Assembly (NCBI GenBank): GCA_028130375.1
Contig: GCA_028130375.1_3658.1
Reading direction: 5' to 3' (one strand)
From: a phage
Length of the DNA stretch: 64,000 nucleotides
This document shows positions 46-48,033 of the stretch, piece after piece. Each line of letters opens with the position of its first letter. Position 1 is the stretch's first letter. Below the pieces are notes generated by a model. The model was given only the letters and a program-made list of their open reading frames with translations. It was not told the origin of the DNA and ran no database searches. A program made the translations under genes and the position numbers.

Positions 46-1371
46 ATGAGCAAAACCAAATTAGAACTTACCTGGATAGGTAAAAACGAGCGCAAAAAGT
101 TAGAGCCCCACATTTTGTTAGAAGATTCTAGCAAATCTTACCACAGCCAGAAAGTGACCGAAAACGATATTTTTGATAATAAACTGATTTTTGGAGATAA
201 CTTATTAGCATTGAAGGCGCTAGAGCAAGAGTATGCAGGCAAAGTGAAGTGTGTTTACATAGACCCACCATTCAATACCGGGAGGGCTTTTGAGCATTAC
301 GATGATAGCCTGGAGCATTCCATTTGGCTGGGCTTAATGAGGGATAGGTTAGAAATAATTCGTAATCTTCTAAGTGATGATGGGGTAATATTCGTTCACT
401 TAGATGATTGCGAAATGGCGTATTTAAAAGTTTTGATGGACGAGATTTTTGGTCGTGCAAATCAGTTAAATACCATATCGATGACCACAAATTCCCCTTC
501 GGGATTTAAGGCAACAGGAGCCACAGTTTTCTCCACAGCAAACTTTTTGCTTGTATATGCAAAAGATCGCACCCAGAAACCGCTTAACAAAATCTATATA
601 CCTAAAGGGTATGATACAGGATATAACAAATACCTATTAAACCCGGATGACCATTATAAAAATTGGACGTGGTGCGGTATTGCCGATGCGTTTGCAAAGG
701 CCAATGGCTATAAAGATGCAAAAGAAGCCAAGAAAAAACTGCCTGATACATTCGATGATGAATTAGCACAATTCGCAATTGATAATGCAGAACGTGTATT
801 TCAATCTGTTGCAATTGGTGGTGGTGCTAAAATAAAGAGAAAAGAAACTATCGAGAAGTCAAAGAAAGATAGGGATAAGGTTTATGTACATCCAAATGAG
901 GATGTTGAAGGATTTTATATCGCAAATGGTAGGCAAATGGTCTTTTACTCCAATAGGCTTTTGGAAATTGACGGTGAGATGCAACCTGCGGAACTAATAA
1001 CTGATGTTTGGACAGACATTAGTTGGAATGGAATAGCAAATGAAGGCGGCGTTAGTTTCAAAAATGGGAAAAAACCAGAAGCGCTTTTGAAGCGGATTTT
1101 CGAAATGTGCACGCGAGAAGGCGATTTGGTATTGGATTCATTCGGTGGTTCTGGAACTACTGCTGCTGTAGCTCATAAGATGAAAAGACGCTGGATCTCA
1201 ATCGAGCTAGGTGATCATTGTCATACCCATATTATTCCGCGCTTGGAAAAAGTGATCGATGGCGAAGATCAAGGTGGTATTTCTAAGTCTGTAAACTGGC
1301 AAGGTGGTGGTGGCTTCCGTTATTACAAACTTGCCCCGGCCTTAGTTGCGAAAGATAAGTCTGATCAATAA
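46..1371 (+). CDS. DNA methyltransferase, beta-class amino-MTase (N6-adenine or N4-cytosine); motif IV DPPF precedes motif I
   Basis: 441 aa; ..VYIDPPFNTG.. near N-terminus and ..DSFGGSGTTAAVA.. (FxGxG SAM-binding) near C-terminus; RBS AAGGAGAG. Confidence 0.8.
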   Translation: MSKTKLELTWIGKNERKKLEPHILLEDSSKSYHSQKVTENDIFDNKLIFGDNLLALKALEQEYAGKVKCVYIDPPFNTGRAFEHYDDSLEHSIWLGLMRDRLEIIRNLLSDDGVIFVHLDDCEMAYLKVLMDEIFGRANQLNTISMTTNSPSGFKATGATVFSTANFLLVYAKDRTQKPLNKIYIPKGYDTGYNKYLLNPDDHYKNWTWCGIADAFAKANGYKDAKEAKKKLPDTFDDELAQFAIDNAERVFQSVAIGGGAKIKRKETIEKSKKDRDKVYVHPNEDVEGFYIANGRQMVFYSNRLLEIDGEMQPAELITDVWTDISWNGIANEGGVSFKNGKKPEALLKRIFEMCTREGDLVLDSFGGSGTTAAVAHKMKRRWISIELGDHCHTHIIPRLEKVIDGEDQGGISKSVNWQGGGGFRYYKLAPALVAKDKSDQ

Positions 1372-1384
1372 AGAGTACAATCAA

Positions 1385-1690
1385 ATGATGAAACGTTATA
1401 AACCATACACTTTTGAAATCGATTTCGAACTTGACGATATGTTCACTGTGGAAGCTCAGGCAGTTGTCCAGTTGCCAGACCCAGAGTGTCGTGATTCTGA
1501 TGTTGACTATTATGGATTTAGACAGATCACTGATGTGCATGTTTACCACAACGGTGAAGAGGTGGACTTCCACAAACTGCCAAACGATATGCGCCACTCA
1601 ATTTACAAACGTGCAGCCCGTGAACTAGAGTCCTATCTTGATGCAGCGACGACAGCAGCTGCATTTGCCGAAGAAGTGGGAGGTTTCTGA
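1385..1690 (+). CDS. hypothetical protein
   Basis: ORF; first ATG after upstream stop at 1369-1371 chosen over the track start 1346. Confidence 0.45.
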   Translation: MMKRYKPYTFEIDFELDDMFTVEAQAVVQLPDPECRDSDVDYYGFRQITDVHVYHNGEEVDFHKLPNDMRHSIYKRAARELESYLDAATTAAAFAEEVGGF

Positions 1691-2085
1691 TGATTACAGA
1701 TGTGAAGATTGTCCAATACCACTTAACCAAGTTGGAAGATGCTGAGAAAGAGCTTGCAGAAGTTCTGAATAGTGGATATACTTTGCTATCATGCGCCTGC
1801 TCAGACACCTACGCTGTGTGGACACTTATCAGGAAGGAAGAGCCTGCAGGGATCTTGGTGCCAAACCCTAAGATTATTAGTGAGGTGGATGACTACCCCC
1901 AGGACGGCCTGCCAGAAGGCTGGGAAGTATGGGAAGGTGGTGAAAACCCTGCACCAGGTAAGTGGGTAAAATACAAACTACGTAGTGGTGCACAGTACGC
2001 TGACTACTCTGATGACCTAGACTGGAGTCATTCTTCACCAGGATCATCTGCAAGTTCATATGATATCGTTGCTTTTCAGGAATAA
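1690..2085 (+). CDS. hypothetical protein
   Basis: 131 aa ORF; ATG overlaps upstream stop (TGATG); GGGAGG RBS. Confidence 0.5.
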   Translation: MITDVKIVQYHLTKLEDAEKELAEVLNSGYTLLSCACSDTYAVWTLIRKEEPAGILVPNPKIISEVDDYPQDGLPEGWEVWEGGENPAPGKWVKYKLRSGAQYADYSDDLDWSHSSPGSSASSYDIVAFQE

Positions 2086-2097
2086 GGAGAGGGTGTT

Positions 2098-2580
2098 ATG
2101 TCAGATTTTATGTGGAAAGTAGGCTATGCCACTCCTGAAATGTGCGAGGCTTGCTTTGTGAAAATAGGCCGCGAGGATATCGACAAAGTGATCCTTAAGT
2201 TTCGTGATGTGGCTGTGATCGGCAACCGAGTGCTTAAGCACTTAAAGAATCTGAAGCTCACTAAAAAGAAGTTCTTCGGGCTTTTCGAAGAGAAAGTTGA
2301 TGCTTGGACCCATTGCATTCAGGAAGCTAAATCTCACTACAGTGCTATCGTTACTCCAGAACGGGTAGCTAAGATGGAAGGATTCATTAACAGCACAGAA
2401 TTTGAGTGTCTGAAAGCTGCACTCGATAGTTATCCGAAATGCCTTAAGCACTTGGACAAGTATGCAGAAAAGGATGGGGAAATGTATCTAACCCTGGACG
2501 CATATTATGAGATGCAAGAAATTTTAAATTTAGATTTGACATTGGTATCCACCGAGTATACAATAGGTATCCGGGTTTAA
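2098..2580 (+). CDS. hypothetical protein
   Basis: 160 aa ORF; RBS AAGGAGAGGG 6 nt upstream. Confidence 0.55.
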   Translation: MSDFMWKVGYATPEMCEACFVKIGREDIDKVILKFRDVAVIGNRVLKHLKNLKLTKKKFFGLFEEKVDAWTHCIQEAKSHYSAIVTPERVAKMEGFINSTEFECLKAALDSYPKCLKHLDKYAEKDGEMYLTLDAYYEMQEILNLDLTLVSTEYTIGIRV

Positions 2581-2586
2581 CACTAG

Positions 2587-2613
2587 GCCCTGCCCGAAAG
2601 GGTGGGGCTTTTT
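2587..2613 (+). terminator. intrinsic terminator (GCCCTGCCC-GAAA-GGGTGGGGC, T5)
   Basis: 9-bp stem with two G-U pairs, GNRA tetraloop, then TTTTT; identical copy at 12754-12781. Confidence 0.6.
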
Positions 2614-3396
2614 GCATTAGGAGACAGCAAATTGAAATTTATCTACAAAGAACACTACCACAAAGGTGTTGTGTGGAGTCTATTTGACGGGTCTGGTGGT
2701 GCAGTCATTGACTGGGCAAAAGCTGGGTACCTGTGCCTGTGCTTTAATGCAGAAGGCGCTGATCACGGCAGTTATGCAGAGGTGATCACCGATCATCCCA
2801 ACATTCACTATGTGGACTATTGGATTGACCCGTGGTTCCCTCAGGAAACTTTTTGCATGTATCCGGCTCCAGATTTTATTCTTGCATTTCCTCCGTGCAC
2901 GCATTTAGCGGTATCAGGTGCTGCACATTTTAAGAAAAAGCTGGCTAAGGACCCCATGATCCAAATTAATGCTGTAAAGGATGCTCGGGTTGCGGAAGAG
3001 CTGGGAGAGATTTACGATTGCCCGTGGCATGTAGAGAATCCTGTGGGTGTTATGTCCACACTGTGGCGCAAACCTGATTACCGTTTTCACCCTTCGGATT
3101 ATGGCGGGTATTTACCGGAAGATGATGTAAACCCATGGTTTCCTGAATTTATAGCTCCACGTGATGCCTATCCAAAAATAACTTGCGGCTGGATAGGTAA
3201 TGGATTTATAATCCCAGCCACAAAACCTGTCCCGCAAATAGTTGACGCGGTTAGCGGGTATTCCATGCAACACGCCAAGCTGGGTGGAAAGAGTGCAAGA
3301 ACGAAGATGATTCGAAGCCTCACACCACGTGGCTGGGCAAAAGCCGTATTCCTAGCAAACGAGCCTGTAGTAAGGAGCAGAATTAATGGGAAGTAA
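2602..3396 (+). CDS. DNA (cytosine-5)-methyltransferase-like protein, compact and divergent
   Basis: Motif I-like SLFDGSGG, motif IV-like AFPPCTHLAVSGA (PC with catalytic Cys, T replacing Q), motif VI-like VENPVG; track start is GTG inside the terminator, a TTG at 2632 behind AGGAGA may be the true start. Confidence 0.5.
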   Translation: MGLFALGDSKLKFIYKEHYHKGVVWSLFDGSGGAVIDWAKAGYLCLCFNAEGADHGSYAEVITDHPNIHYVDYWIDPWFPQETFCMYPAPDFILAFPPCTHLAVSGAAHFKKKLAKDPMIQINAVKDARVAEELGEIYDCPWHVENPVGVMSTLWRKPDYRFHPSDYGGYLPEDDVNPWFPEFIAPRDAYPKITCGWIGNGFIIPATKPVPQIVDAVSGYSMQHAKLGGKSARTKMIRSLTPRGWAKAVFLANEPVVRSRINGK

Positions 3397-5464
3397 ATTT
3401 ATGGCATCTGCATACAACCGTTTCGGTGAGCCAAACCCGAAAGCAACTAAGTATAAAAGTGGGGGAAGTGTGAAACGAGACTATCGTGATGAAAAAGAAG
3501 TTGAAACTGTAGAGACTGTTTTAGAAAATACTAAAATTGTCCCTGTCCCACAACAAAATATCGGTCTGATGGCTGCACAATATTTTGGTGTGCGATCAGC
3601 ATTGTCACAAGAAGACGGTGTGACAGTCACTGCAACATATTTCCCATATTACGACCGCTACGGAAATCTGTCCGGTTTCAAAAAGCGTGACTGGACTATT
3701 CCTAAAGAACAAAGGGGCCACTTCTCCGTTGTTGGCATCGTAAAGGCCAACTCCCAGATGTTTGGTCAAAAGCTGTGTGCATCTTCCAACAACCGTAAGC
3801 AGATTAACGTTTGTGAGGGAGAAGGTGATGTTATTGCAGCATGGCAGGCTGCATATCAGATACAAGTAAAAGGGATTCTCACCAACGCTAAAGCCCCGGC
3901 AAAGGTGAAGCAGTGGGCTAAAGAGGTCCAGGACGGGATCGACGCAGTTATCAACGGTGGTGATCTGGCAGGAAAACCCTGCCTGCCTTTTGTTGGAATT
4001 AACTGTGGATGTGCAAACGCAGTAGATACTTTTGCAAACAATGAGAAGTTTATCCGTAGCTATGGAACAGTTGTACTGGCAATGGATAACGATGCAGCTA
4101 ACGAGGTAGAGAAGCAAAAACACGTCATTAAAGGTGTTGAGGCCACGCACAATATCGCAGCATTTTTGATGGCTGATAACGTTTACCACGTAGAATACCC
4201 TGGTGAAGTAAATGACCCTGACGGGGTAAAAGATATCCGTGACATGCTGAAGGCTAAAAAGCTGGAAGATATTGTCAACATGTTCCGGCATCCTGTTAAA
4301 TATGTGCCTGATGCTGTGTCGGATTTAGAAGACTTCTCTATCGAGTCTTTGCGGAAAAAGACTTCCAACGGGGTAGATATCAGCGCAGAGTTCCCAAAAC
4401 TGCAAAAAATGCTAAAAGGCTTGCACAAAGGGACACTCGTAATGCTTACAGGGCCATCAGGGGGCGGTAAAACAACTGTAGCTAAAAAACTGGAACATTG
4501 TATTGCAAGATACCTAATGGACCCGACATGCCCGAAGGCTGATGACTATGAAGAGGATGATCGTCTATGTATGATCCATCTTGAGGAGGACCCAGAGGAA
4601 GCAATTAACTCCTTGTATGCAAACCAGTTAGGGTTTGATGTTAAAGAGTTTGTTGAAGATCCTAGCCAGTTTTTAACTGATCAAGAACACGCAGAGATTC
4701 ACCAATCATGGGCAAAAGCTGGAAAAATCAAAGTGTTCAAACATTTCGGGTCTATTCCGGTGGATGAGTTGATTACCAAGCTTAAGCAAATGGTTTGCCT
4801 GTACCATTGCCGTTATATTGTGCTGGATCACCTGTCCATGGTAATTTCAGGGCTTAATGTTAAGGATGAGCGAAAAGAACTGGACATGGCTATGACTCAG
4901 CTGGCTGCGTTTTGTAAGCAGTTTAACGTGTTTATCTTGGTGATCGCTCACCTCAAACGTACAGAGATTGTGCCTCCTAAGGACAAGGATGGTAACCCGT
5001 TACCTTTCTGGTATCCTGTGCGAAAAGAGAATTTGCGAGGATCGGCGGGGCTTGAACAGTTGAGTTGGGTAGTCATAGGTGTCGAGGCCGAAGAAATGGT
5101 GGATCGTTCTCGTGGACGTGTCCGTCTGGTAGGTCTTAAAAACCGTCCAGCAAAAACTCTAGGTATTGCTGACACTTTGGTTATGGACCCGCACACAGGT
5201 AAGTTCCATGATGCCAGTAATTGGTACTGGGACAAAGAAATGCAAATGTTTACAGACGGAGAAGGTGGGGAGGTTGTTTGGAGACCTCAAGCTATGTTTG
5301 AGGATCAGGAGCATGCAGTTGTAGAAACACCTATGGGCAAGGTTGTGGCTGATAAGGTTGTAACTCCTACTGTTAAGCCTGTTGACACGCAGGAAGACCT
5401 CCAGTACGATGATCCATCCTCTGACCAGGTCCCTGGTTTTGAGGATGATGAAACGCCTTTTTAA
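3386..5464 (+). CDS. DNA primase/helicase (T7 gp4-like: TOPRIM primase + DnaB-family helicase)
   Basis: 692 aa; TOPRIM-like CEGEGDVIAAW and VLAMDNDAANE; Walker A LTGPSGGGKTT, Walker B IVLDHLS; acidic C-terminus ..FEDDETPF; RBS AAGGAG. Confidence 0.88.
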   Translation: MGSKFMASAYNRFGEPNPKATKYKSGGSVKRDYRDEKEVETVETVLENTKIVPVPQQNIGLMAAQYFGVRSALSQEDGVTVTATYFPYYDRYGNLSGFKKRDWTIPKEQRGHFSVVGIVKANSQMFGQKLCASSNNRKQINVCEGEGDVIAAWQAAYQIQVKGILTNAKAPAKVKQWAKEVQDGIDAVINGGDLAGKPCLPFVGINCGCANAVDTFANNEKFIRSYGTVVLAMDNDAANEVEKQKHVIKGVEATHNIAAFLMADNVYHVEYPGEVNDPDGVKDIRDMLKAKKLEDIVNMFRHPVKYVPDAVSDLEDFSIESLRKKTSNGVDISAEFPKLQKMLKGLHKGTLVMLTGPSGGGKTTVAKKLEHCIARYLMDPTCPKADDYEEDDRLCMIHLEEDPEEAINSLYANQLGFDVKEFVEDPSQFLTDQEHAEIHQSWAKAGKIKVFKHFGSIPVDELITKLKQMVCLYHCRYIVLDHLSMVISGLNVKDERKELDMAMTQLAAFCKQFNVFILVIAHLKRTEIVPPKDKDGNPLPFWYPVRKENLRGSAGLEQLSWVVIGVEAEEMVDRSRGRVRLVGLKNRPAKTLGIADTLVMDPHTGKFHDASNWYWDKEMQMFTDGEGGEVVWRPQAMFEDQEHAVVETPMGKVVADKVVTPTVKPVDTQEDLQYDDPSSDQVPGFEDDETPF

Positions 5465-5522
5465 TGTTTAACAAAGAGTGGGAGGGGTAGTACAACCGCC
5501 TCCCCTTTAAGGAGAACTGTAT

Positions 5523-8300
5523 ATGAGCATGTGGTCGTTCGATTTTGAGTCATCCGGTTTGCTGGAAGACCCAGATCTTTATTATCACTGCGGTCTGTTT
5601 AAAGAGCTGAATAAGAACCGTTTTATGCTGTTCCTTCCTCTAAATGACCGCACACACTACTCCGAGGAGGATATGGAGAAGGCTAAGAACTTTATTCTGG
5701 CAAAGAAAACTCTTTATAAAGATTTTGAAGTTCGCATAGCAGATTTTTCGGAGTTGGAAGGTTGGCTCACAGGCAATTCCGACTGGTCACCAACAGCTTT
5801 GAACTGCCATAACTGCTACAGTTATGACTTTATGCTGATGGAAAGATTATCCGGTATTCATTTTGATATGTTCCGTGATCCTAAATGCATGGGGACTATC
5901 AACGACCACCAGGTTAACCTGTTTGATACGTTGGCGATGAGCCGAATCTTATGGCCTGATCGCCCTTTACCAAAAGGTTGTCCTGACTCCGTATTCAACC
6001 CGGTTACTAAGAAAATGCAGCCTGTTGGTCCTCACGGCCTTATGGCATGGGGCTACGCCCTTGGTAACCAGAAAGTTCAAATTGATGACTGGCGCGATCT
6101 TCCGTTGTGGAAGTATGTGGATCGTGTATTCGAGGACGTTATCATCCAGGAGCTGCTCTGGAAAGAGCTGGTAGCGGAATCAAAAGGTGTATTCTACGGC
6201 AAATCTGACATGCAGAACTTTATGTACGATCCTGCCAAAGAGAAGCCGAAAGGGTTCAAGAAGATCACCTGGAAGAACGCATTGCGCCGGGGTATGCTGC
6301 AACACTTCCTGATGGAGCTGCAGGCCCGTCAGGGTGTGTATTTTGACATAGATGGAGCTATTGCTTTACGTGACCGTTGCGATGCGTGGATGAAAGAAAT
6401 CGCTGATCGTGTTGAACCGCAACTACCTTTAAAAGAGCTGTCAATGTCTCAGCGGCCCAAGTTCCCTGAAAAGCCGTTTAACCAAGATGGGACAATCTCC
6501 AATAATGGTTGGAAATGGTTAAAAGATAAGCTTGGCTATCCTGTAGATATGAGCGCTTTAGAGTTCAAAGCCCCGCCTAAGCGAGCATTTACCTCTACAG
6601 GAGATGTCAGTAAGATGGGGATAAAATGGTGTGAAGAGATGGGCTGCAAAGACCCCGATAAGATGGCTGATTTCTTGAGAGGCTATATTAAGGGCACCTC
6701 CACACCACAACCTTTACCTAAAGAGCTAATGGATCAGGCAATAAGTGATCTACAGCAGAAGCGAATGCCGGACTGCAAGATACCTATGAAAATCAGCAAC
6801 CAGGACGACATTAAGCGATACCTGATCAGTGCTGGTTGGCTTCCAACAATGTGGAGAACTAAGGATGTAACTAAAGACAGCAAGAAGAAAGCTCTACCTG
6901 ATGCAGATGTTGATGCACGAGTATATGCATATATGGACGAGCTTTTAGAGTCAGAGTATTGTGACCTGATTATCAACTTCTGGAACAAAACTGATGCTAA
7001 GTTCCAGACAACCGTGCACAAGTTCCGAAGCTTTCCTAACTCCGAAAGGATTAAAAAGGAAGTATTCGGGAAAATACGTAGAAAAGCTAGGGCACTTATT
7101 ACTTCTCCGCAACTGAAAGATACGTTTGGACACCTATGCCCTAATCTTGAAAAATTGAACGGAGAGATGGCTAAAGATATCGTCTTGTGGTTATCATTGC
7201 GAAACCGCAGATCGGTCCTTGATCCAATCAAGGAGGATAAGGTTGATACTGGTCTTCTTAATCACCCACGTTTGAAGATTGACCATAAGCTTCCTGCTAA
7301 AAGTTCTGGATTAACAAACACTTCCCGACAGAAACACAGTATTTGTGCAAACATGCCTAAACCATCTCCTAAAGTGGTTATGGGTAAAGAGATGCGTAGT
7401 CTGTGGGGTGTTCCTCCAGGATACTTTGAGATCGGTATTGACGGGTCCAACTTAGAGCAGCTTATCGGGGCTTGGGGTGCCTTTGAGTTCGACAACGGCC
7501 TGTATTACGATGTTGTAAGTAACGGGGACGCACACCAAAACAATGCTGAGGCATATACAAAAGTAGCAGGTAGAGAGGTGTCTCGTAACGACGGTAAACC
7601 TATCACGTATGGGGTTATGTATGGGGCACAAAAAGATAAAGTTGCAGATATGCTGGACATCTCTCCAGAGTTGGGACAAAGGGTAATCGATGCACTCTGG
7701 GATGCCAACCCTGGTCTTAAGGGGCGTAAAGAAGATCTGGAGAAATTCTGGGAAGCAACGGGTAAGAAGTTTATCTACTCTTTTGATGGTCATGCTATCT
7801 GGACCCGATCTAAACACTCTTTACTTAATGCATACCAACAAAATGGCGGTGCATCGTTGTGTGATTTAGTTGGGATACTCATGCACCACCAAATGGTGAA
7901 GCGTGGGTGGTACGATGAAGGTGTCCGTCGTATTATTTATTACCATGACGAATATCAGCTTCAAGTCCCTGACACACCGAAGTATAAGACTGTGTACACC
8001 TTCGACACAATTGAAGAACTGGAAGCATTTAAGGCAGAACAGGAGGCCAAACTTCATGTGTTCGACGGTCATAAGTACAAAAAGGCACGCAAAGATGAGG
8101 ACGGAAACGAAGTAGTTGACAGGGACGGAAACACGGTGTACGATCCTATCCTGAACGATGACGGAAAGCTTGAGCTTATCTGGAGCCCTGTGGGTGAAAT
8201 GGTGGTGCATTGCTTCTGGCAAGCTTCTAAAATGATGGGAGTCCCGTTCCAGATCACAGGTGAATACCTGTGTGGTCGTAATTGGGGTGATTGTCACTAA
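5523..8300 (+). CDS. DNA polymerase, family A, with N-terminal 3'-5' proofreading exonuclease
   Basis: 925 aa; Exo I MWSFDFESSG; motif B ..KPITYGVMYGAQ..; motif C ..YYHDEYQ..; RBS TAAGGAG. Confidence 0.9.
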   Translation: MSMWSFDFESSGLLEDPDLYYHCGLFKELNKNRFMLFLPLNDRTHYSEEDMEKAKNFILAKKTLYKDFEVRIADFSELEGWLTGNSDWSPTALNCHNCYSYDFMLMERLSGIHFDMFRDPKCMGTINDHQVNLFDTLAMSRILWPDRPLPKGCPDSVFNPVTKKMQPVGPHGLMAWGYALGNQKVQIDDWRDLPLWKYVDRVFEDVIIQELLWKELVAESKGVFYGKSDMQNFMYDPAKEKPKGFKKITWKNALRRGMLQHFLMELQARQGVYFDIDGAIALRDRCDAWMKEIADRVEPQLPLKELSMSQRPKFPEKPFNQDGTISNNGWKWLKDKLGYPVDMSALEFKAPPKRAFTSTGDVSKMGIKWCEEMGCKDPDKMADFLRGYIKGTSTPQPLPKELMDQAISDLQQKRMPDCKIPMKISNQDDIKRYLISAGWLPTMWRTKDVTKDSKKKALPDADVDARVYAYMDELLESEYCDLIINFWNKTDAKFQTTVHKFRSFPNSERIKKEVFGKIRRKARALITSPQLKDTFGHLCPNLEKLNGEMAKDIVLWLSLRNRRSVLDPIKEDKVDTGLLNHPRLKIDHKLPAKSSGLTNTSRQKHSICANMPKPSPKVVMGKEMRSLWGVPPGYFEIGIDGSNLEQLIGAWGAFEFDNGLYYDVVSNGDAHQNNAEAYTKVAGREVSRNDGKPITYGVMYGAQKDKVADMLDISPELGQRVIDALWDANPGLKGRKEDLEKFWEATGKKFIYSFDGHAIWTRSKHSLLNAYQQNGGASLCDLVGILMHHQMVKRGWYDEGVRRIIYYHDEYQLQVPDTPKYKTVYTFDTIEELEAFKAEQEAKLHVFDGHKYKKARKDEDGNEVVDRDGNTVYDPILNDDGKLELIWSPVGEMVVHCFWQASKMMGVPFQITGEYLCGRNWGDCH

Positions 8301-41484: not shown

Positions 41485-41520
41485 AAATTACCCCCTCTTG
41501 TTGAAAACAACAATACACAA

Positions 41521-41835
41521 CTACCAGGTTACTGTCAAGTAGGCAACCGTATTATTTTTCTCTGGGGAGATGCCAACAACATCTACCTGCAGACCTCCTG
41601 CCCTTAAATCTCCAACAATGTGCGGGAAGTAATCTGAGAGATGCGAGGGTAGATTTATCGAAAATCCGCACCCCAGAAAGCCTGCTAACGCTTTATTTTG
41701 TATCTCCCCTACAATCGCATCATAAATGGAGTTAAGCTCGTCAGGGAGCGTTACAGGGCGTTTTAGCGCTAGCTGGTGTAATTTGTCCTTAGCACTCATT
41801 TTCATTTCAGGTCTACCTCTGGGGGTGCCAACCAC
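41521..41835 (-). CDS. hypothetical protein
   Basis: 104 aa ORF. Confidence 0.45.
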   Translation of the reverse strand: MVGTPRGRPEMKMSAKDKLHQLALKRPVTLPDELNSIYDAIVGEIQNKALAGFLGCGFSINLPSHLSDYFPHIVGDLRAGGLQVDVVGISPEKNNTVAYLTVTW

Positions 41836-42335
41836 ATAAATGGCGGCAAGTCTAAACGGTTTTTCTTATCCCACACAAAATATGCATATGCTTGCCCGTC
41901 AGTTCTGCCGTTTGATTGAAATGATGGACGCTTAGATATTGTGATCACAGTAGTAGGTGCATTATCAAGCCACCATTCAAATCTGGCTTTGCTTTCCAGA
42001 AAATTAAGACGCAAAAGCATAATAACTACGTCAGCATCTTTCAACGCCTTGTCTACAAACTCACGAGCCAGGCTGTATGGTGGGTTGGTGATAATACAGT
42101 CAACATGGTTGTATTCTGTATTCAGATAGTCAACACCTTCTTGTATTTCTCCCCATGCAGATCCTAACGGCATACGGGAGTAGAACACACCTGAGGCACT
42201 ATTCCTGCAAGGCTCTAAGTAGGTCCAGTCTTCTGGGAACGGAATAAGGTCATACAGCCCTTCTGCACACCACTCCGGTGTCACATACTCATCGTAGGCG
42301 TTACGTTGTTCATCAGGTTTTCTAGCACAAGTCAT
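41802..42335 (-). CDS. small DNA N6-adenine methyltransferase (NPPY motif)
   Basis: 177 aa; ..YLEPCRNSASGVF.. (motif I-like) and ..DCIITNPPYSLA.. (motif IV). Confidence 0.65.
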   Translation of the reverse strand: MTCARKPDEQRNAYDEYVTPEWCAEGLYDLIPFPEDWTYLEPCRNSASGVFYSRMPLGSAWGEIQEGVDYLNTEYNHVDCIITNPPYSLAREFVDKALKDADVVIMLLRLNFLESKARFEWWLDNAPTTVITISKRPSFQSNGRTDGQAYAYFVWDKKNRLDLPPFMWLAPPEVDLK

Positions 42336-42350
42336 GCAAATCTCCAGATC

Positions 42351-42374
42351 ATAAAAGCCCTCCGAAGAGGGCTT
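42351..42374 (-). terminator. intrinsic terminator (minus strand; UUCG-type loop)
   Basis: AGCCCTC-CGAA-GAGGGCT on the plus strand with flanking ATAAA, giving a T-tract on the minus strand. Confidence 0.5.
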
Positions 42375-42386
42375 TAGAATTAATGT

Positions 42387-43436
42387 TTAAGCTTCTTCGA
42401 CAATTCCTGCACCCAGGATTTTTTCATTGAGCTCTTTTGCTGTTTTAATAATATTGTCCACCAGACGCTTGCGGGTCTTATCTTTCACCTTAACCTCTTC
42501 ACCGCCGTTCAGAGTAGTCTTCAGTTGAGACAGAATATCCTGAAGTTCAACGACAGAGAATCTCTGCAGATCTTCTGAAGTAATCTCACTCAGGGCAATT
42601 CTGACGGTCTCGCCACTTTCCATCTGCAGATTCAGGAACACAGTGTGAACATCACCTTTCGAACCACCCGCTTTTGCAGATTCAACAGCATGAACTAACT
42701 CATCTAAAGATGTGCACTGGTGAATCTCCGGAAGACCTGCTTCACCTAACACGCCTTCTTCATCACCTTTTGCCAGAAGCTTTTTCGGTTTTTGTCCGTT
42801 CTGGATGCGTTGTATGTTGCCTTCATCCAGAATAATAGCTCCAGTGCGTGCTGCCAGCTCTTCTCCGTCCAACCACACTTCGCCACCAGCTGTGATGGAT
42901 GCGATCTCATCTTCTGTCAGCACCCCACCGTAGTATTTTTCGATCAGGCGTTCAAAACGTTTTTTCCAGTAGCTGACCTGAGTATTCATGTTCACACCGT
43001 TACCATAAGTGCCACCTTGATAGTAGTGGAACATAAACTCTGTGTCCGGAGCCACAGTACGTTCTTTACAACCAAGCCATAAGATTGTTCCAGCAGAGCA
43101 GCACATCCCTTCAGCATGTGCAACAACGCTTGCCTGAGACTCTCGGAATGCCTGCAGATAAGCCATTGCAATGTGCACGCAACCCCCAGGGCTATTGATG
43201 ATCACCCGAATGCTTTCTTCCGGCTGAGCCATACGGATCGTCTGCAGACGAGACATATGATCTTGTAAGTCTTCCAAATCGTCGATATAAAGAACGTGGT
43301 CAACAACAGGTGTTGGGTAGCTGTATGTTTCCATGATACCGCCCGGCATACCAAACATTTTATTACTCATAGGTTCGAAACCGTTCTGTTTTTCTTTCAT
43401 GCCGTGTACCATGGTTCTGCGAGGTGTTAAATTCAT
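42387..43436 (-). CDS. ClpP/S49-family serine protease-like protein with long C-terminal helical extension
   Basis: 349 aa; ..VIINSPGGCVHIAMAY.. and ..GMCCSAGTIL.. resemble the ClpP INSPGG and active-site Ser motifs; C-terminal third is charged/helical. Confidence 0.55.
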   Translation of the reverse strand: MNLTPRRTMVHGMKEKQNGFEPMSNKMFGMPGGIMETYSYPTPVVDHVLYIDDLEDLQDHMSRLQTIRMAQPEESIRVIINSPGGCVHIAMAYLQAFRESQASVVAHAEGMCCSAGTILWLGCKERTVAPDTEFMFHYYQGGTYGNGVNMNTQVSYWKKRFERLIEKYYGGVLTEDEIASITAGGEVWLDGEELAARTGAIILDEGNIQRIQNGQKPKKLLAKGDEEGVLGEAGLPEIHQCTSLDELVHAVESAKAGGSKGDVHTVFLNLQMESGETVRIALSEITSEDLQRFSVVELQDILSQLKTTLNGGEEVKVKDKTRKRLVDNIIKTAKELNEKILGAGIVEEA

Positions 43437-43496
43437 GAGAAATCCTTAATATTGGAAGTTGAAAGCTATTTATTTAAACCTGATTCACATTTACCT

Positions 43497-43808
43497 TTAT
43501 TTAGCAATCACTATGGAATACTTACGATTGTCAGAAGCATCACAACTCAATGATTGCCAGTCTACCACATACCACGTATCATTGTCAACAATTACTTTAT
43601 CGCCTGTTCTGTAGCAAGTGCTGCTTTCAATAATTCGAGACTCGATAAAGAATCTGTGTCGGCGCTCACGTAGCAACGCTAAGTTAATTATATTACCACC
43701 GCTGTCCTTGGTCCACACATTCTTGGATCCCTTATTTGCCAAAATTGTCTCGCCGTTATAGACAAACAGGCAGTATATTTTATTCAGTTTCTCTTGTATT
43801 GTAGCCAT
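43497..43808 (-). CDS. hypothetical protein
   Basis: 103 aa ORF. Confidence 0.5.
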   Translation of the reverse strand: MATIQEKLNKIYCLFVYNGETILANKGSKNVWTKDSGGNIINLALLRERRHRFFIESRIIESSTCYRTGDKVIVDNDTWYVVDWQSLSCDASDNRKYSIVIAK

Positions 43809-43836
43809 ACTGTCCTTCTCTCTGTTTTGTCCGATA

Positions 43837-43865
43837 ATAATATCTAAAGCTTACCTATTTGTCAA
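43837..43865 (-). promoter_or_regulatory. sigma70-like promoter on minus strand (TTGACA-17-TATTAT)
   Basis: TGTCAA at 43860-43865 and ATAATA at 43837-43842 on the plus strand. Confidence 0.5.
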
Positions 43866-43909
43866 CAACTGTTTTAGATATTTAAGGGTGGAATAACCAC
43901 CCTTCTGTA

Positions 43910-44698
43910 TTACTCGGAAACAGGGGTCCAAATATGATTTGCACGATCCTCAATAAGATTGAGTGCGATCTGACGACCCAACCCAGAACGAACGACATCG
44001 TCTGGACTATCAAAGCTGATCATTCCAACCTCAGGATCTGGATGACGAGTAAAGAAATCCGTCACCCATGCAAGGCCAGATTTACCAGGGATGTCACGTT
44101 GGCTATTATCACCCATAATTACAAGGGTGGCTTGATCAGAGATCCTTGTGATAATTGACAACATTTCTTCAGGGTTAGTTTGCTGTGCCTCGTCAATCAG
44201 GACAAAGCATCGCTCATCGAAACTACGACCACGAATGCTTTCAACTTCACAAATCTCGATACGGCTGTTCTGACCGTCTCCCAGCATTGCGGCAAAAGCA
44301 CCTTTGCCAACACGACGACAAATCGTGTCCATCATGCTTCGAAGATAGGGCCACAGTTTCTGCATTGCATTTCCAGGTTTAAATCCTGAAGTCTTTCCTG
44401 TCTGAACGTAAGGACGTGCAACAATAATCTTATCAATCTCGTTCTTACGCAGAAGATCACCTGCATATGCAGATGCCATGAATGTCTTACCGGATCCAAA
44501 CACACCGTTTACAATAATAATCTTACGTGACCCTAGATAATCAAGATACTTTTGCTGCTTCTTATTCATTGGTCGGAGAGCTGGAGCGGTGTGCTCTCTT
44601 TCGTCAGCAAATTTCTCAGCAGCCTTACGCAGGCGATCAGATTTGCGAGCCTCTCTAGCTTCATCACGCATGCGTTTTGTTTCTTTAGCTCGACCCAT
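43910..44698 (-). CDS. phoH: PhoH-like ATPase
   Basis: 262 aa; Walker A ..VNGVFGSGKTFMA.., Walker B ..FVLIDEAQ.., ..LVIMGDNSQRD.. as in the PhoH family. Confidence 0.78.
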   Translation of the reverse strand: MGRAKETKRMRDEAREARKSDRLRKAAEKFADEREHTAPALRPMNKKQQKYLDYLGSRKIIIVNGVFGSGKTFMASAYAGDLLRKNEIDKIIVARPYVQTGKTSGFKPGNAMQKLWPYLRSMMDTICRRVGKGAFAAMLGDGQNSRIEICEVESIRGRSFDERCFVLIDEAQQTNPEEMLSIITRISDQATLVIMGDNSQRDIPGKSGLAWVTDFFTRHPDPEVGMISFDSPDDVVRSGLGRQIALNLIEDRANHIWTPVSE

Positions 44699-44736
44699 GT
44701 TGGGACTCCTTTCAGATTGAGATGTGCCAAGTACTT

Positions 44737-45087
44737 TTACTGCAACAGTTTTTCAATAGCCGCTTCCATGCTGCTTGCAACAGCCTGAACTCGGATATTC
44801 ATCTCTTCTTGGTGGATCAGCTCCTTAAGCTCTTTAATGGTAAATTCTTTAGAGAAACCTTCCACCATAATCTTGTGCAAGGCTTCTTGCGTGTCTACTT
44901 GCAAGAACTTTTCCAGTTTGTTGGCAGAGGCTTCTAAATCAGCCCGAATACGAGGGTCATCTGTGCGATTCAGCATTAGGCGTAAGCCATCAAGATTAGT
45001 AGAAATAGCATCTGCATGTTGAGTAACTAACCGTGGCAAAATGAGATCTACAAACTTATTAGCCAAATCGATACGTTCTTGTGTCAC
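44737..45087 (-). CDS. hypothetical protein
   Basis: 116 aa; GTG start overlaps upstream stop. Confidence 0.45.
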   Translation of the reverse strand: MTQERIDLANKFVDLILPRLVTQHADAISTNLDGLRLMLNRTDDPRIRADLEASANKLEKFLQVDTQEALHKIMVEGFSKEFTIKELKELIHQEEMNIRVQAVASSMEAAIEKLLQ

Positions 45088-45197: not shown

Positions 45198-45227
45198 TTG
45201 GCACCTCCTCTGCTTTCATTACGGCAA

Positions 45228-45256
45228 TTATAACCAACTCAACAAAGCTTTGTCAA
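45228..45256 (-). promoter_or_regulatory. sigma70-like promoter on minus strand (TTGACA-17-TTATAA)
   Basis: TGTCAA at 45251-45256 on the plus strand. Confidence 0.45.
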
Positions 45257-45909: not shown

Positions 45910-48033
45910 TCAGCAACCACAACTTCCGTAGTGCTTAACTCGCTCGATAACTTCCGCTTGCTTACCTTTATTGTAAGGACGGGAGTTAGGACTGGAAAGG
46001 TATCCAGACACACGTCGAATTACACTGATCGTTCCCTCTTCATGGTTTCCACACTCTGGGCATACAAAGCCTTTAGCTGTTGCACTGAACTCACCAGAGA
46101 AACCACACTTGAGACATTTATCCACAGGTTGGTTAATACCAAAATACATAATGTGTTTATACCCGAAGTCAACAAGAGCCTCTAAAGCATCCAGGTTGTT
46201 TTTCAGGTTAGGTGTTTCTACGTATCCGATGTTGCCACCAGAGGAGATCATAGCAAAACCTTCCTCATACTCCCACTTATCAAAAGGAGAGCTATTTATC
46301 CATACTGGCTGATGGAAACTGTTGGTGAGATATTCATGCTCGTGCTTCAACACTTCCGGATATTCACGATCCAGACAGGTTGCAGCTTTATAGCATAGAC
46401 TCTCAGAAGGAGTGCCGTACAAGCTAAATGCTAGTCTACTTTCCTTCTTGTATCGCTCACAAGCATCTCTCATGTGCTGAAGGATTCCAAGAGCTAAAGC
46501 CTTGTCACCCTCTCTGCCCAAAATCTGACAGGTTTCATACACACCGATATACCCAATACTGATGGAAGCGTACCCGTCATAGAAGAGTTTATCAATACTC
46601 TCTTCAGGATCCAGGCGAGCAAGAGCGCCTTCACACCACATGATGGGGTTCTGCCCTGCCTTTGTTCCTTTTAGACGATTAACCCTTACAAGGTGAGCCT
46701 CGTATGCAAGATCCAAGTATTCGTCAAGAACTGCAAAGAAATCAACACCTTCCGTCTTGGCTTTTGCCGCAATCATTGGCAGGTTAAGGCTAACAACGCC
46801 TAAGTTAAATCTGCCAAGGTATTTCTCCTCGCCTGTTTCCAAGTCATTGTATTTGCTAAGAAAACTCCTGCAACCCATGCTAGTTACTTTGCCATCTGTC
46901 GAGCCTGTCACTTTTCTATTTAGTGGTACAGATACGAAGTCAGGATAGATACGTTCTGCACAGCATTCCAGAGCTAATCGTTTCAAATCATAGTTAGGAT
47001 CCCCAGGGTTCATGTTGACACCCTCTTCCAGGAAGAACAGCACTTTAGGGAACACAGGTGTGATACGTTCTTCACCAAGACCCATTTTGTGGACTTTCAG
47101 GTAGTTTTTGGTAATCATTCTACCAAAGACCGAGGTATCCAGTCCTAAACTCAATGTGATGAATGGAGTTTGCCCGTTGACAGAAGTTAACGTGTTGATT
47201 TGATAGAGCAAAGTCTGCATGCTGTCAAATACGTCTTTATCTGTCATTTGCATTGCAACAGTTTCAGCATCCGGCAACCAATGTTCCTGGCAAAATTTAA
47301 GGTTCTTCTCATAGGTTGCTTCAGCATACTGTGCCAGATAATGATCAATATGGCTCATAGTCTGACCACCATATTGAGCACTAGCTACCGCACTAGAGAT
47401 TTGGCTAAGGATTGTTGTTGCAACCCCTATTGACTTCGGCTTACTGACATGGGCGTTACCAATGTTGAATCCGTTTTCCAACATATCTGGATAATTTACC
47501 AAACAACAGTTTGTTAACGGACTGATCAAGTAGTCAAGATCATGCACATGGATGAATCCTTTATTGTGCTCTTCGGAGACACGGTCTGGCAGGATCTGTG
47601 TTGATGCAAGGTGTTTGCTAAGAATACCTGCAAGCAGGTCGCGATGAGTGTGTACATGATTAGTAGGCTTATTTGCGTTTTCTTTTGTAAATTCATCACA
47701 AGTTCGATCCAAGAAGCCACTAATATCTGCAAGCAGTTTTCCACCTGCCTCTCTGTTATTATCTCTTGTCTGTCTATACTGGATGTATTCTCTGGCTGCA
47801 CATTTTAAACCCATATCCATAAGAGCATCTTCAACAAGGATATGGATATTTTTTACAGAGATCGTGCACTGGTCGGTTGGTAGATTGTTAGCAACAACTT
47901 CATTAACCGCGCAGGCGATCCGGTAAGCTTCTTCTTCAGTATGTCCAGACTCAAGTAAGGCGGACTCTGCCGCCTTGATCACCTTAATTCCGTTATAGAA
48001 CTCTTCTCTACCGTCCCGTTTTACAACTTTCAC
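45910..48033 (-). CDS. nrdD: anaerobic ribonucleoside-triphosphate reductase (class III)
   Basis: 707 aa; N-terminal ATP-cone-like ..VVKRDGREEFYNG..; C-terminal zinc ribbon CLKCG..CPECG and glycyl-radical region ..IRRVSGYLS.. Confidence 0.88.
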   Translation of the reverse strand: MKVVKRDGREEFYNGIKVIKAAESALLESGHTEEEAYRIACAVNEVVANNLPTDQCTISVKNIHILVEDALMDMGLKCAAREYIQYRQTRDNNREAGGKLLADISGFLDRTCDEFTKENANKPTNHVHTHRDLLAGILSKHLASTQILPDRVSEEHNKGFIHVHDLDYLISPLTNCCLVNYPDMLENGFNIGNAHVSKPKSIGVATTILSQISSAVASAQYGGQTMSHIDHYLAQYAEATYEKNLKFCQEHWLPDAETVAMQMTDKDVFDSMQTLLYQINTLTSVNGQTPFITLSLGLDTSVFGRMITKNYLKVHKMGLGEERITPVFPKVLFFLEEGVNMNPGDPNYDLKRLALECCAERIYPDFVSVPLNRKVTGSTDGKVTSMGCRSFLSKYNDLETGEEKYLGRFNLGVVSLNLPMIAAKAKTEGVDFFAVLDEYLDLAYEAHLVRVNRLKGTKAGQNPIMWCEGALARLDPEESIDKLFYDGYASISIGYIGVYETCQILGREGDKALALGILQHMRDACERYKKESRLAFSLYGTPSESLCYKAATCLDREYPEVLKHEHEYLTNSFHQPVWINSSPFDKWEYEEGFAMISSGGNIGYVETPNLKNNLDALEALVDFGYKHIMYFGINQPVDKCLKCGFSGEFSATAKGFVCPECGNHEEGTISVIRRVSGYLSSPNSRPYNKGKQAEVIERVKHYGSCGC

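What the first reader, a model, noticed from the sequence alone, without database searches (positions are those of the whole stretch)
42387..43436. ClpP/S49-like serine protease with a long helical tail inside a nucleotide-metabolism cluster
The N-terminal half carries INSPGG and a GxxxSAG active-site-like motif; the C-terminal third is charged and helical, like protease-scaffold fusions. No capsid, portal or terminase gene is nearby; its neighbours are a methyltransferase and phoH. Either the morphogenesis module is fragmented or this protease has a non-structural role.
Basis: partly seen in the sequence, partly recalled or inferred. Interest (0 to 1): 0.5.

Follow-up and report, generated by a model that had tools for sequence, protein, structure and literature searches.

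The report
Second, non-head ClpP-like phage protease
This gene is the already-annotated ClpP-like protease (gp122) of rV5-type E. coli phages: a second protease that sits apart from the phage's own head-assembly protease, probably works inside the infected cell, and still has no known target.

Summary
The ORF is real: 42387-43436, minus strand, 349 aa, with INSPGG and GMCCSAG. The window is an rV5-like Vequintavirus, 99.9% identical to phage slur16. The protein is 100% identical to slur16's annotated ClpP subunit and corresponds to rV5 gp122, annotated ClpP in 2013.

Its N-terminal domain is a genuine ClpP fold. Ser114 and His137 align with the ClpP catalytic Ser and His and are invariant in all homologs sampled.

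The morphogenesis module is not fragmented. In phage AlexBoehm (99.4% identical), terminase, portal, an XkdF-type prohead protease, scaffold, decoration and capsid genes form one block about 33 kb away on the other strand.

The ClpP-like gene and a small upstream ORF lie between a predicted sigma-70 promoter and a terminator, inside a nucleotide-metabolism cluster beside PhoH. gp122 is absent from the rV5 virion proteome.

The "scaffold-like tail" is instead a lineage-specific small alpha/beta domain with no relatives.

Five of the seven mappable residues of ClpP's ClpX/ClpA docking pocket are replaced by invariant polar residues, so the usual "ATP-dependent" label is unsupported. Substrate and function remain unknown.

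Verdict: ordinary and already catalogued. Interest is low to moderate.

The parts
43837..43865 (-). Predicted sigma-70 promoter (TTGACA-17-TATTAT, 11 of 12), equivalent to rV5 promoter P121
   Evidence: Consensus scan. The same element was predicted independently by the rV5 authors (Table S4). Prediction only; transcription was not measured.
43497..43808 (-). 103-aa ORF (rV5 gp121 equivalent, PHROG 5456, unknown function), first gene of the two-gene unit
   Evidence: ORF. (PHROG 5456, E=2e-39). No Pfam match. Conserved upstream of the ClpP-like gene in rV5-like loci and weakly in PVP-SE1-like loci.
42387..43436 (-). ClpP-like protease gene, 349 aa (rV5 gp122 equivalent; 100% identical to the slur16 protein)
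42801..43301 (-). ClpP-fold catalytic domain (residues about 46-212)
   Evidence: AlphaFold2 pLDDT about 90. Foldseek against PDB ClpP structures: TM 0.63-0.70 normalised to the target, about 170 aligned columns. PDB profile hits to ClpP down to E=4.7e-13.
43095..43097 (-). Codon of Ser114, the predicted nucleophile (aligns with E. coli ClpP Ser97, mature numbering)
   Evidence: Invariant in 21 long-form homologs and 7 distant phage homologs.
43026..43028 (-). Codon of His137, the predicted general base (aligns with ClpP His122)
   Evidence: Invariant in all sampled homologs.
42879..42881 (-). Codon of Glu186, candidate third triad residue (at the ClpP Asp171 position by motif alignment: RDRFL / RDIYI / KDFWM / GEVWL)
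   Evidence: My reading of the alignment, plus the secondary-structure register; codon checked. The residue is Gln in 17 of 21 long-form homologs, so the assignment is tentative.
42411..42707 (-). Lineage-specific C-terminal alpha/beta domain (residues about 244-342), joined by a disordered linker (about 224-240)
42351..42372 (-). Rho-independent terminator (GCCCTC-TTCG-GAGGGC-TTTTAT), 15 nt after the stop codon; equivalent to rV5 t122
   Evidence: Sequence read. The identical element is listed as t122 (-14.9 kcal/mol) in rV5 Table S4.
43910..44698 (-). PhoH-like P-loop ATPase, the conserved upstream neighbour
   Evidence: Pfam PhoH E=3.6e-47. PhoH is linked to the ClpP-like gene in Vequintavirinae, ICP1, Barbavirus, locus L028 and Alteromonas phage V22.
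41802..42335 (-). DNA methyltransferase, the conserved downstream neighbour, beyond the terminator
   Evidence: PHROG 799 E=8e-67. Weak Pfam Dam/EcoRI-methylase matches. Conserved immediately downstream in L004, L005 and L011-L027.

Best explanation
The gene encodes an accessory ClpP-fold serine peptidase that is not part of the virion. It is made from a two-gene unit (gp121-like ORF plus protease) by host sigma-70 RNA polymerase, as part of the phage's DNA- and nucleotide-metabolism programme rather than its late head-assembly programme.

Catalysis is expected to use Ser114 and His137, with Glu186 as a possible third residue, in a ClpP-like chamber.

Five of the seven mappable residues that line the ClpX/ClpA docking pocket in E. 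coli ClpP are replaced here by invariant polar residues. The enzyme therefore probably does not plug into the host Clp ATPases. It more likely acts on its own, on peptides, unfolded proteins or specific targets.

The lineage-specific C-terminal domain on a flexible linker is the most likely substrate- or partner-binding module.

Shown here: the fold, the Ser/His conservation, the location away from an intact head module that has its own protease, the predicted promoter and terminator, and the absence from published virion proteomes. Inferred: timing of expression, oligomeric state, independence from ATPases, and the role of the C-terminal domain. The substrate is unknown.
For: Fold and active site:
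- Pfam CLP_protease is above its cutoff.
- PDB ClpP profile hits reach E=4.7e-13.
- The structure model matches ClpP over the whole body.
- Ser114 and His137 align with the ClpP catalytic Ser and His at 96% profile-profile probability. Both are invariant in all 28 phage homologs aligned.

Not the head protease:
- AlexBoehm, 99.4% identical, has TerL, portal, a Peptidase_S78_2 protease (E=8.7e-18), scaffold, decoration and a Phage_cap_E capsid protein in one block, about 33 kb away on the other strand.
- In rV5 itself the capsid protein is gp60, the portal is gp64 and the ClpP-like protein is gp122.
- gp122 is not among the 19 proteins in the rV5 virion MS.
- The W70 and CB7 virion proteomes list the XkdF-type protease, but neither paper's main text mentions Clp.
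- T5 likewise has a head protease (T5.150) in its head module. The Slocum record's annotation note matches its Clp protease, which lies next to the dNMP kinase gene, to T5.042.
- Homologs in KVP40-like, PaP1-like, ICP1 and Barba phages all lie among replication or nucleotide-metabolism genes.

Transcription unit: the promoter and terminator were both predicted independently in rV5 Table S4.

ATPase docking: at the E. coli pocket positions, Y60 becomes R77, F82 becomes E99, I90 becomes H107, M92 becomes E109 and F112 becomes T127. All five are invariant in the long-form family.
Against: No expression, activity or interaction data exist for this protein or any family member in the literature I could search.

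The promoter and terminator are predictions only.

Absence from virions is weak evidence. Prohead proteases usually leave the mature head, and only 19 rV5 proteins were detected.

The list of ClpP pocket residues comes from my own knowledge of the E. coli ClpP literature and was not checked against a structure here.

The Asp171 equivalent could not be aligned automatically. It is Gln in most homologs, so the catalytic arrangement could differ.

Oligomeric state could not be modelled. The weak PHROG and NCBIfam matches to ClpP-related head maturation proteases show the two groups are related.
Confidence: 0.7

Rival explanations
1. It is a second, or the true, capsid maturation protease fused to a scaffold-like tail, displaced from the head module.
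For: ClpP/S49-fold proteases with C-terminal scaffold domains are a known phage design (lambda gpC/Nu3, P2 gpO; my own knowledge). There are weak profile matches to head maturation protease families: PHROG 1684 at E=8e-22, PHROG 94 at 2.6e-17, and NF045542 at 60 bits.
Against: The NF045542 score is half its cutoff of 120. A complete head module with its own XkdF-type protease and scaffold lies about 33 kb away on the other strand. That protease, and no Clp entry, appears in the virion proteome tables of relatives. The gene has its own sigma-70-type promoter and terminator. There is no convincing nested start for a scaffold product. The tail is a small globular domain, not an extended helical scaffold. 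Homologs in T5 and T4-like phages coexist with well-known head proteases.
Confidence: 0.06
2. It is a phage-supplied proteolytic subunit that replaces or mixes with host ClpP and is driven by host ClpX/ClpA. This is the literal meaning of the database label 'ATP-dependent Clp protease proteolytic subunit', and it would redirect host ATP-dependent proteolysis.
For: Whole-body ClpP fold including the handle helix. A conserved N-terminal segment lies ahead of the core where ClpP has its axial loops. The host provides ClpX next to clpP.
Against: Five of the seven mappable pocket residues that dock the ClpX/ClpA IGF loops are replaced by invariant charged or polar residues. The ClpP equivalog model TIGR00493 scores 33 bits against a cutoff of 308.6. 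Identity to cellular ClpP is only about 20%.
Confidence: 0.12
3. It works with the neighbouring phage PhoH-like ATPase as a phage-encoded two-component ATP-dependent degradation system. Protein and RNA-protein substrates are both conceivable.
For: PhoH lies upstream of the ClpP-like gene, separated by 0 to 3 annotated ORFs (about 0.05 to 2 kb), in Vequintavirinae, ICP1, Barbavirus, metagenomic locus L028 and Alteromonas phage V22. This holds although the two proteins have diverged to about 21-39% identity and the intervening ORFs are not conserved. The invariant polar patch that replaces the ClpX pocket could serve a different partner.
Against: In the window PhoH is upstream of the P121 promoter, so it is not in the same predicted unit. 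The linkage is absent in T5-like, KVP40-like and PaP1-like phages and in most short metagenomic forms. The linkage may simply reflect inheritance of a shared replication module. To my knowledge PhoH has no known unfoldase activity.
Confidence: 0.07
4. It is a catalytically dead ClpP mimic that acts as a decoy or inhibitor of host proteolysis.
For: Phages are known to inhibit host proteases (for example T4 PinA against Lon; my own knowledge). The third triad residue is Gln in most homologs.
Against: Ser114 and His137, and the surrounding G-x-x-C-S-A-G-T and M-F-H-x-Y-Q-G-G motifs, are strictly invariant across deep divergence, which points to selection for catalysis. The ClpX docking pocket that a decoy would need is not conserved.
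Confidence: 0.05

Closest known systems
rV5 gp122 / PHROG 5410 'ATP-dependent protease' (Vequintavirinae ClpP-like protease, e.g. slur16, AlexBoehm bas56_0173, PVP-SE1 gp151)
   Same: It is the same protein. It is 100% identical to the slur16 product and matches PHROG 5410 over the full length at E=2e-155. It has the same length and the same neighbours as rV5 gp122.
   Different: Nothing differs. The database names ('ATP-dependent') imply a partnership with a Clp ATPase that the sequence does not support.
Short standalone phage ClpP-like proteases (PHROG 1827; T5.042, ICP1 ClpP, PaP1 gp041, KVP40-type ClpP, Barba gp072)
   Same: Same ClpP core with invariant Ser and His. All lie among early replication or nucleotide-metabolism genes, away from head modules. 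More than 1,000 phage records carry one.
   Different: Most are 180-240 aa and lack the C-terminal domain found here. ICP1 has a different C-terminal extension. Identity to the window protein is only 25-36%.
Cellular ClpP (MEROPS S14; E. coli ClpP, PDB 1TYF and others)
   Same: Same fold, including the handle helix (TM 0.63-0.70). The catalytic Ser and His are aligned, and the INSPGG oxyanion-loop motif is shared.
   Different: About 20% identity. The IGF-loop docking pocket residues are replaced by polar residues. The Asp171 equivalent is Glu or Gln. There is an extra 135-residue linker and domain. TIGR00493 scores far below its cutoff.
ClpP-related and S49 phage head maturation proteases, including protease-scaffold fusions (NF045542; lambda gpC/Nu3 and P2 gpO from my own knowledge)
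   Same: Distantly related ClpP-like core. The architecture is superficially similar: an N-terminal protease followed by a C-terminal extension.
   Different: It scores below the family cutoff. It is not in the head module. The genome has another prohead protease and scaffold. There is no nested scaffold start. Its signals are sigma-70-type early/middle signals.

Membership tests
ClpP fold / Pfam CLP_protease (PF00574) | Profile match above the curated cutoff, and ClpP three-dimensional fold | tested here: met
   47.7 bits against a cutoff of 20.2. Foldseek TM 0.63-0.70 to many ClpP structures.
Canonical ClpP (MEROPS S14, TIGR00493 equivalog) | Catalytic Ser and His at the conserved positions | tested here: met
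   Ser114 and His137 align with E. coli Ser97 and His122. Both are invariant in the family.
Canonical ClpP (MEROPS S14, TIGR00493 equivalog) | Catalytic Asp (Asp171) completing the triad | tested here: inconclusive
   Automatic alignment failed in this region. Motif and secondary-structure register place Glu186 there. The residue is Gln in 17 of 21 long-form homologs and Asp in ICP1, T5-like and KVP40-like homologs.
Canonical ClpP (MEROPS S14, TIGR00493 equivalog) | Hydrophobic pocket (Y60, Y62, F82, I90, M92, F112, L114) that docks the IGF/LGF loops of ClpX/ClpA | tested here: not met
   The aligned residues are R77, I79, E99, H107, E109, T127 and A129. R77, E99, H107, E109 and T127 are invariant. 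The pocket residue list is from my own knowledge of the E. coli ClpP literature.
Canonical ClpP (MEROPS S14, TIGR00493 equivalog) | Equivalog profile score above cutoff | tested here: not met
   TIGR00493 scores 33.2 bits against a cutoff of 308.6. All other ClpP NCBIfam models are also far below cutoff.
Canonical ClpP (MEROPS S14, TIGR00493 equivalog) | Double-heptamer chamber and ATPase-dependent protein degradation | not testable with these tools
   No multimer modelling or biochemistry was available.
ClpP-related phage head maturation protease (NF045542 Clp_rel_HeadMat) | Profile score above cutoff | tested here: not met
   60.3 bits against a cutoff of 120.
ClpP-related phage head maturation protease (NF045542 Clp_rel_HeadMat) | Encoded in the head module between portal and major capsid genes, as the phage's prohead protease | tested here: not met
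   The head module is about 33 kb away on the other strand and contains a Peptidase_S78_2 protease. The gene's neighbours are PhoH, a methyltransferase and RNR genes.
ClpP-related phage head maturation protease (NF045542 Clp_rel_HeadMat) | Present in proheads, and expressed late | tested here: inconclusive
   It is absent from the rV5 virion MS, and the papers on relatives' virion proteomes do not mention Clp. Predicted sigma-70 promoter. No prohead proteome or transcriptome was available.
Peptidase S49 (SppA, lambda gpC type) | S49 profile match and a Ser-Lys dyad | tested here: not met
   No Peptidase_S49 Pfam hit. TIGR00706 SppA scores 14.4 bits against a cutoff of 155. The second catalytic position carries an invariant His aligned with the ClpP His.
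Protease-scaffold fusion (lambda C/Nu3, P2 gpO type) | C-terminal scaffold domain, usually with a nested in-frame start, in a genome that lacks a separate scaffold | tested here: not met
   Only weak SD-like GTG codons occur internally. The tail is a 100-residue alpha/beta domain. A separate scaffold gene sits next to the capsid gene.
PHROG 5410 (Vequintavirinae-type long ClpP-like protease) | Full-length profile match | tested here: met
   E=2e-155, residues 24-345 on profile positions 4-322 of 323.

The most novel reading that the evidence does not exclude
The phage ClpP-like ring has swapped the ClpX/ClpA docking pocket for a conserved polar surface, and in this lineage has gained a private C-terminal domain. 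This would let it work with a non-canonical partner, such as the persistently linked PhoH-like ATPase or the co-transcribed gp121 protein. It would then be a phage-owned regulated degradation machine aimed at specific host proteins, for example defence or stress-response factors. If so, this would assign a function both to the widespread orphan phage ClpP family and to phage PhoH.
Probability: 0.07. Interest if true: 0.75.

Novelty: already known. Interest (0 to 1): 0.25.

Why it matters
The finding itself is not new. The gene has been annotated as a ClpP-like protease in rV5-type phages since rV5 was described, and it belongs to a catalogued phage family.

What remains open is function. More than a thousand sequenced virulent phages (T5-like, ICP1, KVP40-like, PaP1-like, rV5-like) carry a ClpP-fold protease outside the head module, and I found no experimental study of any of them.

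This analysis suggests the standard label 'ATP-dependent Clp protease subunit' is probably misleading, because the ATPase docking pocket is not conserved. It also gives concrete handles for experiments: S114A, deletion of the C-terminal domain, and tests against PhoH and gp121. rV5-like phages are used in phage therapy and biocontrol, so a phage protease that acts in the host cytoplasm is worth understanding.

Tried and rejected
- Literature. Six searches looked for functional work on phage ClpP-like proteases, covering rV5, ICP1, Vequintavirinae, PAK_P3/P4 and phage-encoded ClpP. They returned only annotations. The Mic1 cyanophage 'clp protease' (late cluster) comes from a phage that was not among my homolog hits and was not compared, so I did not use it.
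- A faulty alignment. My first attempt to map E. coli ClpP residues used mafft --keeplength, which dropped residues and gave wrong numbering. I discarded it and redid the mapping.
- Asp171. MAFFT misaligned the ClpP C-terminus, so the Asp171 equivalence rests on my reading of the motif and the secondary-structure register.
- PhoH co-occurrence. In 79 IMG/VR loci the linkage is near-universal only within the long-form (Vequintavirinae-like) clade and in a few outgroups. Most short forms of about 185 aa show none. I therefore treat it as a lead, not a finding.
- Nested scaffold-like start. I looked for one and found none convincing.
- Limits. No tRNA genes occur in the window.

Full report
**Observation**

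The ORF is present exactly as described: 42387-43436, minus strand, 349 aa. Its ATG is preceded by AAGGA at a 6-nt spacing. INSPGG lies at residues 80-85 and GMCCSAG at 110-116.

Pfam CLP_protease matches above its curated cutoff (47.7 against 20.2 bits, E=2.1e-12). PHROG 5410 'ATP-dependent protease' matches end to end at E=2e-155. No Peptidase_S49 model matches, and the SppA model scores 14 bits against a cutoff of 155.

**Source and prior knowledge**

A 3.3-kb stretch around the gene is 99.9% identical to Escherichia phage slur16 and to other rV5-like phages of the genus Vequintavirus. In 110 phage records one match covers at least 80% of that stretch. The protein is 100% identical to the slur16 product.

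It corresponds to rV5 gp122 (349 aa), which was listed as 'ClpP (ATP-dependent) protease subunit' in the 2013 rV5 genome paper (PMC3606486, Table S3). The gene is therefore already annotated in many public records.

**Where the head genes are**

Phage AlexBoehm is 99.4% identical and carefully annotated. There the ClpP-like gene is bas56_0173, at 105304-106353 on the minus strand.

Its head module is a contiguous plus-strand block at 683-6817: large terminase, portal, prohead protease, scaffold, decoration protein and major capsid protein. I checked these labels directly:
- The 139-aa protease matches Pfam Peptidase_S78_2 (XkdF type) at E=8.7e-18.
- The capsid protein matches Phage_cap_E at E=3e-40.
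- The portal matches Portal_Mu and PHROG 113.

On a circular map, the module begins roughly 9 kb beyond the right end of the window and about 33 kb from the ClpP-like gene, on the opposite strand. In rV5 the capsid protein is gp60 and the portal is gp64, against gp122 for the ClpP-like protein.

The morphogenesis module is thus intact and has its own protease and scaffold.

**Virion data**

The rV5 shotgun virion proteome lists 19 proteins, and gp122 is not among them. The papers reporting virion proteomes of the related phages W70 and CB7 list the XkdF-type protease beside the portal, and their main texts do not mention Clp. This is weak negative evidence, because prohead proteases are commonly lost from mature heads.

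**Transcription context**

A near-consensus sigma-70 promoter (TTGACA-17-TATTAT) lies at 43865-43837 on the minus strand, between PhoH and the 103-aa ORF that precedes the ClpP-like gene. A GC-rich hairpin with a T tail lies at 42372-42351, 15 nt after the stop codon.

The rV5 authors predicted both independently, as P121 and t122. The gp121-like ORF and the protease therefore look like a two-gene unit read by host RNA polymerase. The unit lies inside the large minus-strand block that also carries nrdDG, nrdAB, thyA, exonucleases and ligase. The late-promoter motif the rV5 authors derived was found only in the structural region. All of this is prediction; I found no transcriptome for this group.

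**The protein**

An AlphaFold2 model built on 21 homologs gives three parts:
- a confident core, residues about 46-212, pLDDT about 90;
- a disordered linker, about 224-240;
- a moderately confident C-terminal domain, 244-342.

The core matches cellular ClpP structures over essentially the whole ClpP body, with TM 0.63-0.70 normalised to the target and about 170 aligned columns.

Profile-profile alignment with E. coli ClpP (96% probability) puts Ser114 on the catalytic Ser (Ser97, mature numbering) and His137 on His122. Both are invariant in 21 long-form homologs and in 7 distant phage homologs: ABPH49, ICP1, L028, Barba, PaP1, phi-pp2 and T5-like Slocum. The codons were checked.

The Asp171 region did not align automatically. 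By my reading of the motif (RDRFL in ClpP, RDIYI in Slocum, KDFWM in ICP1, GEVWL here) and of the strand-helix register of the model, the equivalent residue is Glu186. It is Gln in most long-form homologs, so the third residue is uncertain.

**ATPase docking**

From the E. coli ClpP literature (my own knowledge), the pocket that receives the IGF/LGF loops of ClpX and ClpA is lined by Y60, Y62, F82, I90, M92, F112, L114 and L189.

In the well-aligned part of the domain these positions are R77, I/V79, E99, H107, E109, T127 and A/S129. R77, E99, H107, E109 and T127 are invariant in the long-form family. The ClpP equivalog model scores 33 bits against a cutoff of 308.6.

The protein thus has the ClpP fold and catalytic pair but not the docking surface. 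The 'ATP-dependent' label is inherited from the fold, not supported by the sequence.

**The C-terminal tail**

It is richer in charged residues than the core (31% against 22%). It is not a long helical scaffold. Modelled alone, it is a helix, a beta-hairpin and three helices, with pLDDT 80-92 over the folded part.

There is no convincing in-frame internal start of the lambda C/Nu3 kind.

**The wider family**

The ClpP core has relatives in more than 1,100 phage records. A T5-like homolog as query finds more than 1,300. In every case examined, the gene lies among replication or nucleotide-metabolism genes:
- PVP-SE1 and ABPH49: PhoH, a few ORFs, ClpP, methyltransferase.
- ICP1: RNR, lysozyme, PhoH, two ORFs, ClpP, ligase.
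- Barba25A: PhoH, Clp protease, Dam methylase.
- Alteromonas V22: PhoH as CDS-146 and Clp protease as CDS-147.
- PaP1: near dCMP deaminase and ligase.
- KVP40-like phi-pp2: between frd and uvsX.
- T5-like Slocum: next to dNMP kinase, with an annotation note matching it to T5.042.

T5 has a separate head maturation protease, T5.150, between its portal and major head protein genes. The two-protease layout therefore recurs in unrelated lineages, which argues that this family is not the capsid protease.

**PhoH linkage**

Among 79 IMG/VR loci, all long-form loci but one have PhoH within about 2.5 kb upstream, and all have the methyltransferase downstream. A few outgroups (ICP1, Barba, L028) keep PhoH. 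Most short forms of about 185 aa do not.

The linkage survives divergence to 21-39% identity while the intervening ORFs turn over. However, shared ancestry of a replication module could explain it. In the window, PhoH also lies upstream of the P121 promoter. I treat a functional PhoH-protease partnership as a low-probability lead.

**Conclusion**

The S49 and scaffold-fusion analogies are not supported.

The best-supported description is an accessory, non-virion ClpP-fold serine peptidase of a catalogued and widespread phage family. In this subfamily it carries a private C-terminal domain, and it probably acts without the host Clp ATPases. Its substrate is unknown.

The gene is already known and annotated. 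The modest points of interest are the unsupported 'ATP-dependent' label and the complete lack of functional data for a very common phage gene.

Noticed in passing
window 41500-44800, compared with GenBank MG065635, MG065653, MG065654, MG065666 and others: Nineteen records named 'Campylobacter phage', mostly unannotated, are 98.6-99.9% identical to this E. coli rV5-like sequence over 3.3 kb. The host label of those records looks doubtful; contamination or mislabelling is possible.
   Followed up: no
window 43497-43808 (-): A 103-aa ORF (rV5 gp121 equivalent, PHROG 5456, no known function, no Pfam match) appears to be co-transcribed with the ClpP-like gene between promoter P121 and terminator t122. 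It could be a partner, regulator or substrate of the protease.
   Followed up: partly
window 43910-44698 (-), and loci L004, L005, L006, L010, L028: A PhoH-like ATPase stays within about 0.05-2.5 kb upstream of the ClpP-like gene in several deeply diverged phage lineages (Vequintavirinae, ICP1, Barbavirus, a metagenomic contig, and Alteromonas V22 by its gene table). The ORFs in between are not conserved.
   Followed up: partly
window 45227-45256 (-): A perfect 12-of-12 sigma-70 consensus promoter (TTGACA-18-TATAAT) lies just downstream of nrdG and upstream of the small ORFs that lead to PhoH. It matches rV5 promoter P118.
   Followed up: no
proteins P0002, P0003, P0017: Homologs labelled as Escherichia coli or Enterobacter asburiae proteins sit on contigs of about 74-137 kb. 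The 137-kb contig is the size of a whole Vequintavirinae genome, which suggests phage sequence deposited within bacterial assemblies.
   Followed up: no
L001 24413-26580 and L003 17352-20971 (AlexBoehm), compared with window 45910-48033 and 5523-8300: In AlexBoehm the anaerobic ribonucleotide reductase (nrdD) and the DNA polymerase are each annotated as joined from two pieces, the polymerase with a homing endonuclease inside it. In the window nrdD reads as one uninterrupted 707-aa ORF. Intron or intein content seems to vary among these near-identical phages.
   Followed up: no
window 41802-41835: The 104-aa ORF at 41521-41835 (PHROG 12158, unknown function) overlaps the 3' end of the methyltransferase gene by 34 nt if its GTG start is used. 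AlexBoehm annotates a shorter version (285 nt) overlapping by only 4 nt, so the GTG start is probably not the real one.
   Followed up: no
ClpP-like protein residues 77, 99, 107, 109, 127 (window about 43056-43208): An invariant set of polar residues (R77, E99, H107, E109, T127) occupies the positions of ClpP's hydrophobic ATPase-docking pocket. This looks like a conserved new surface rather than simple decay of the old one.
   Followed up: partly
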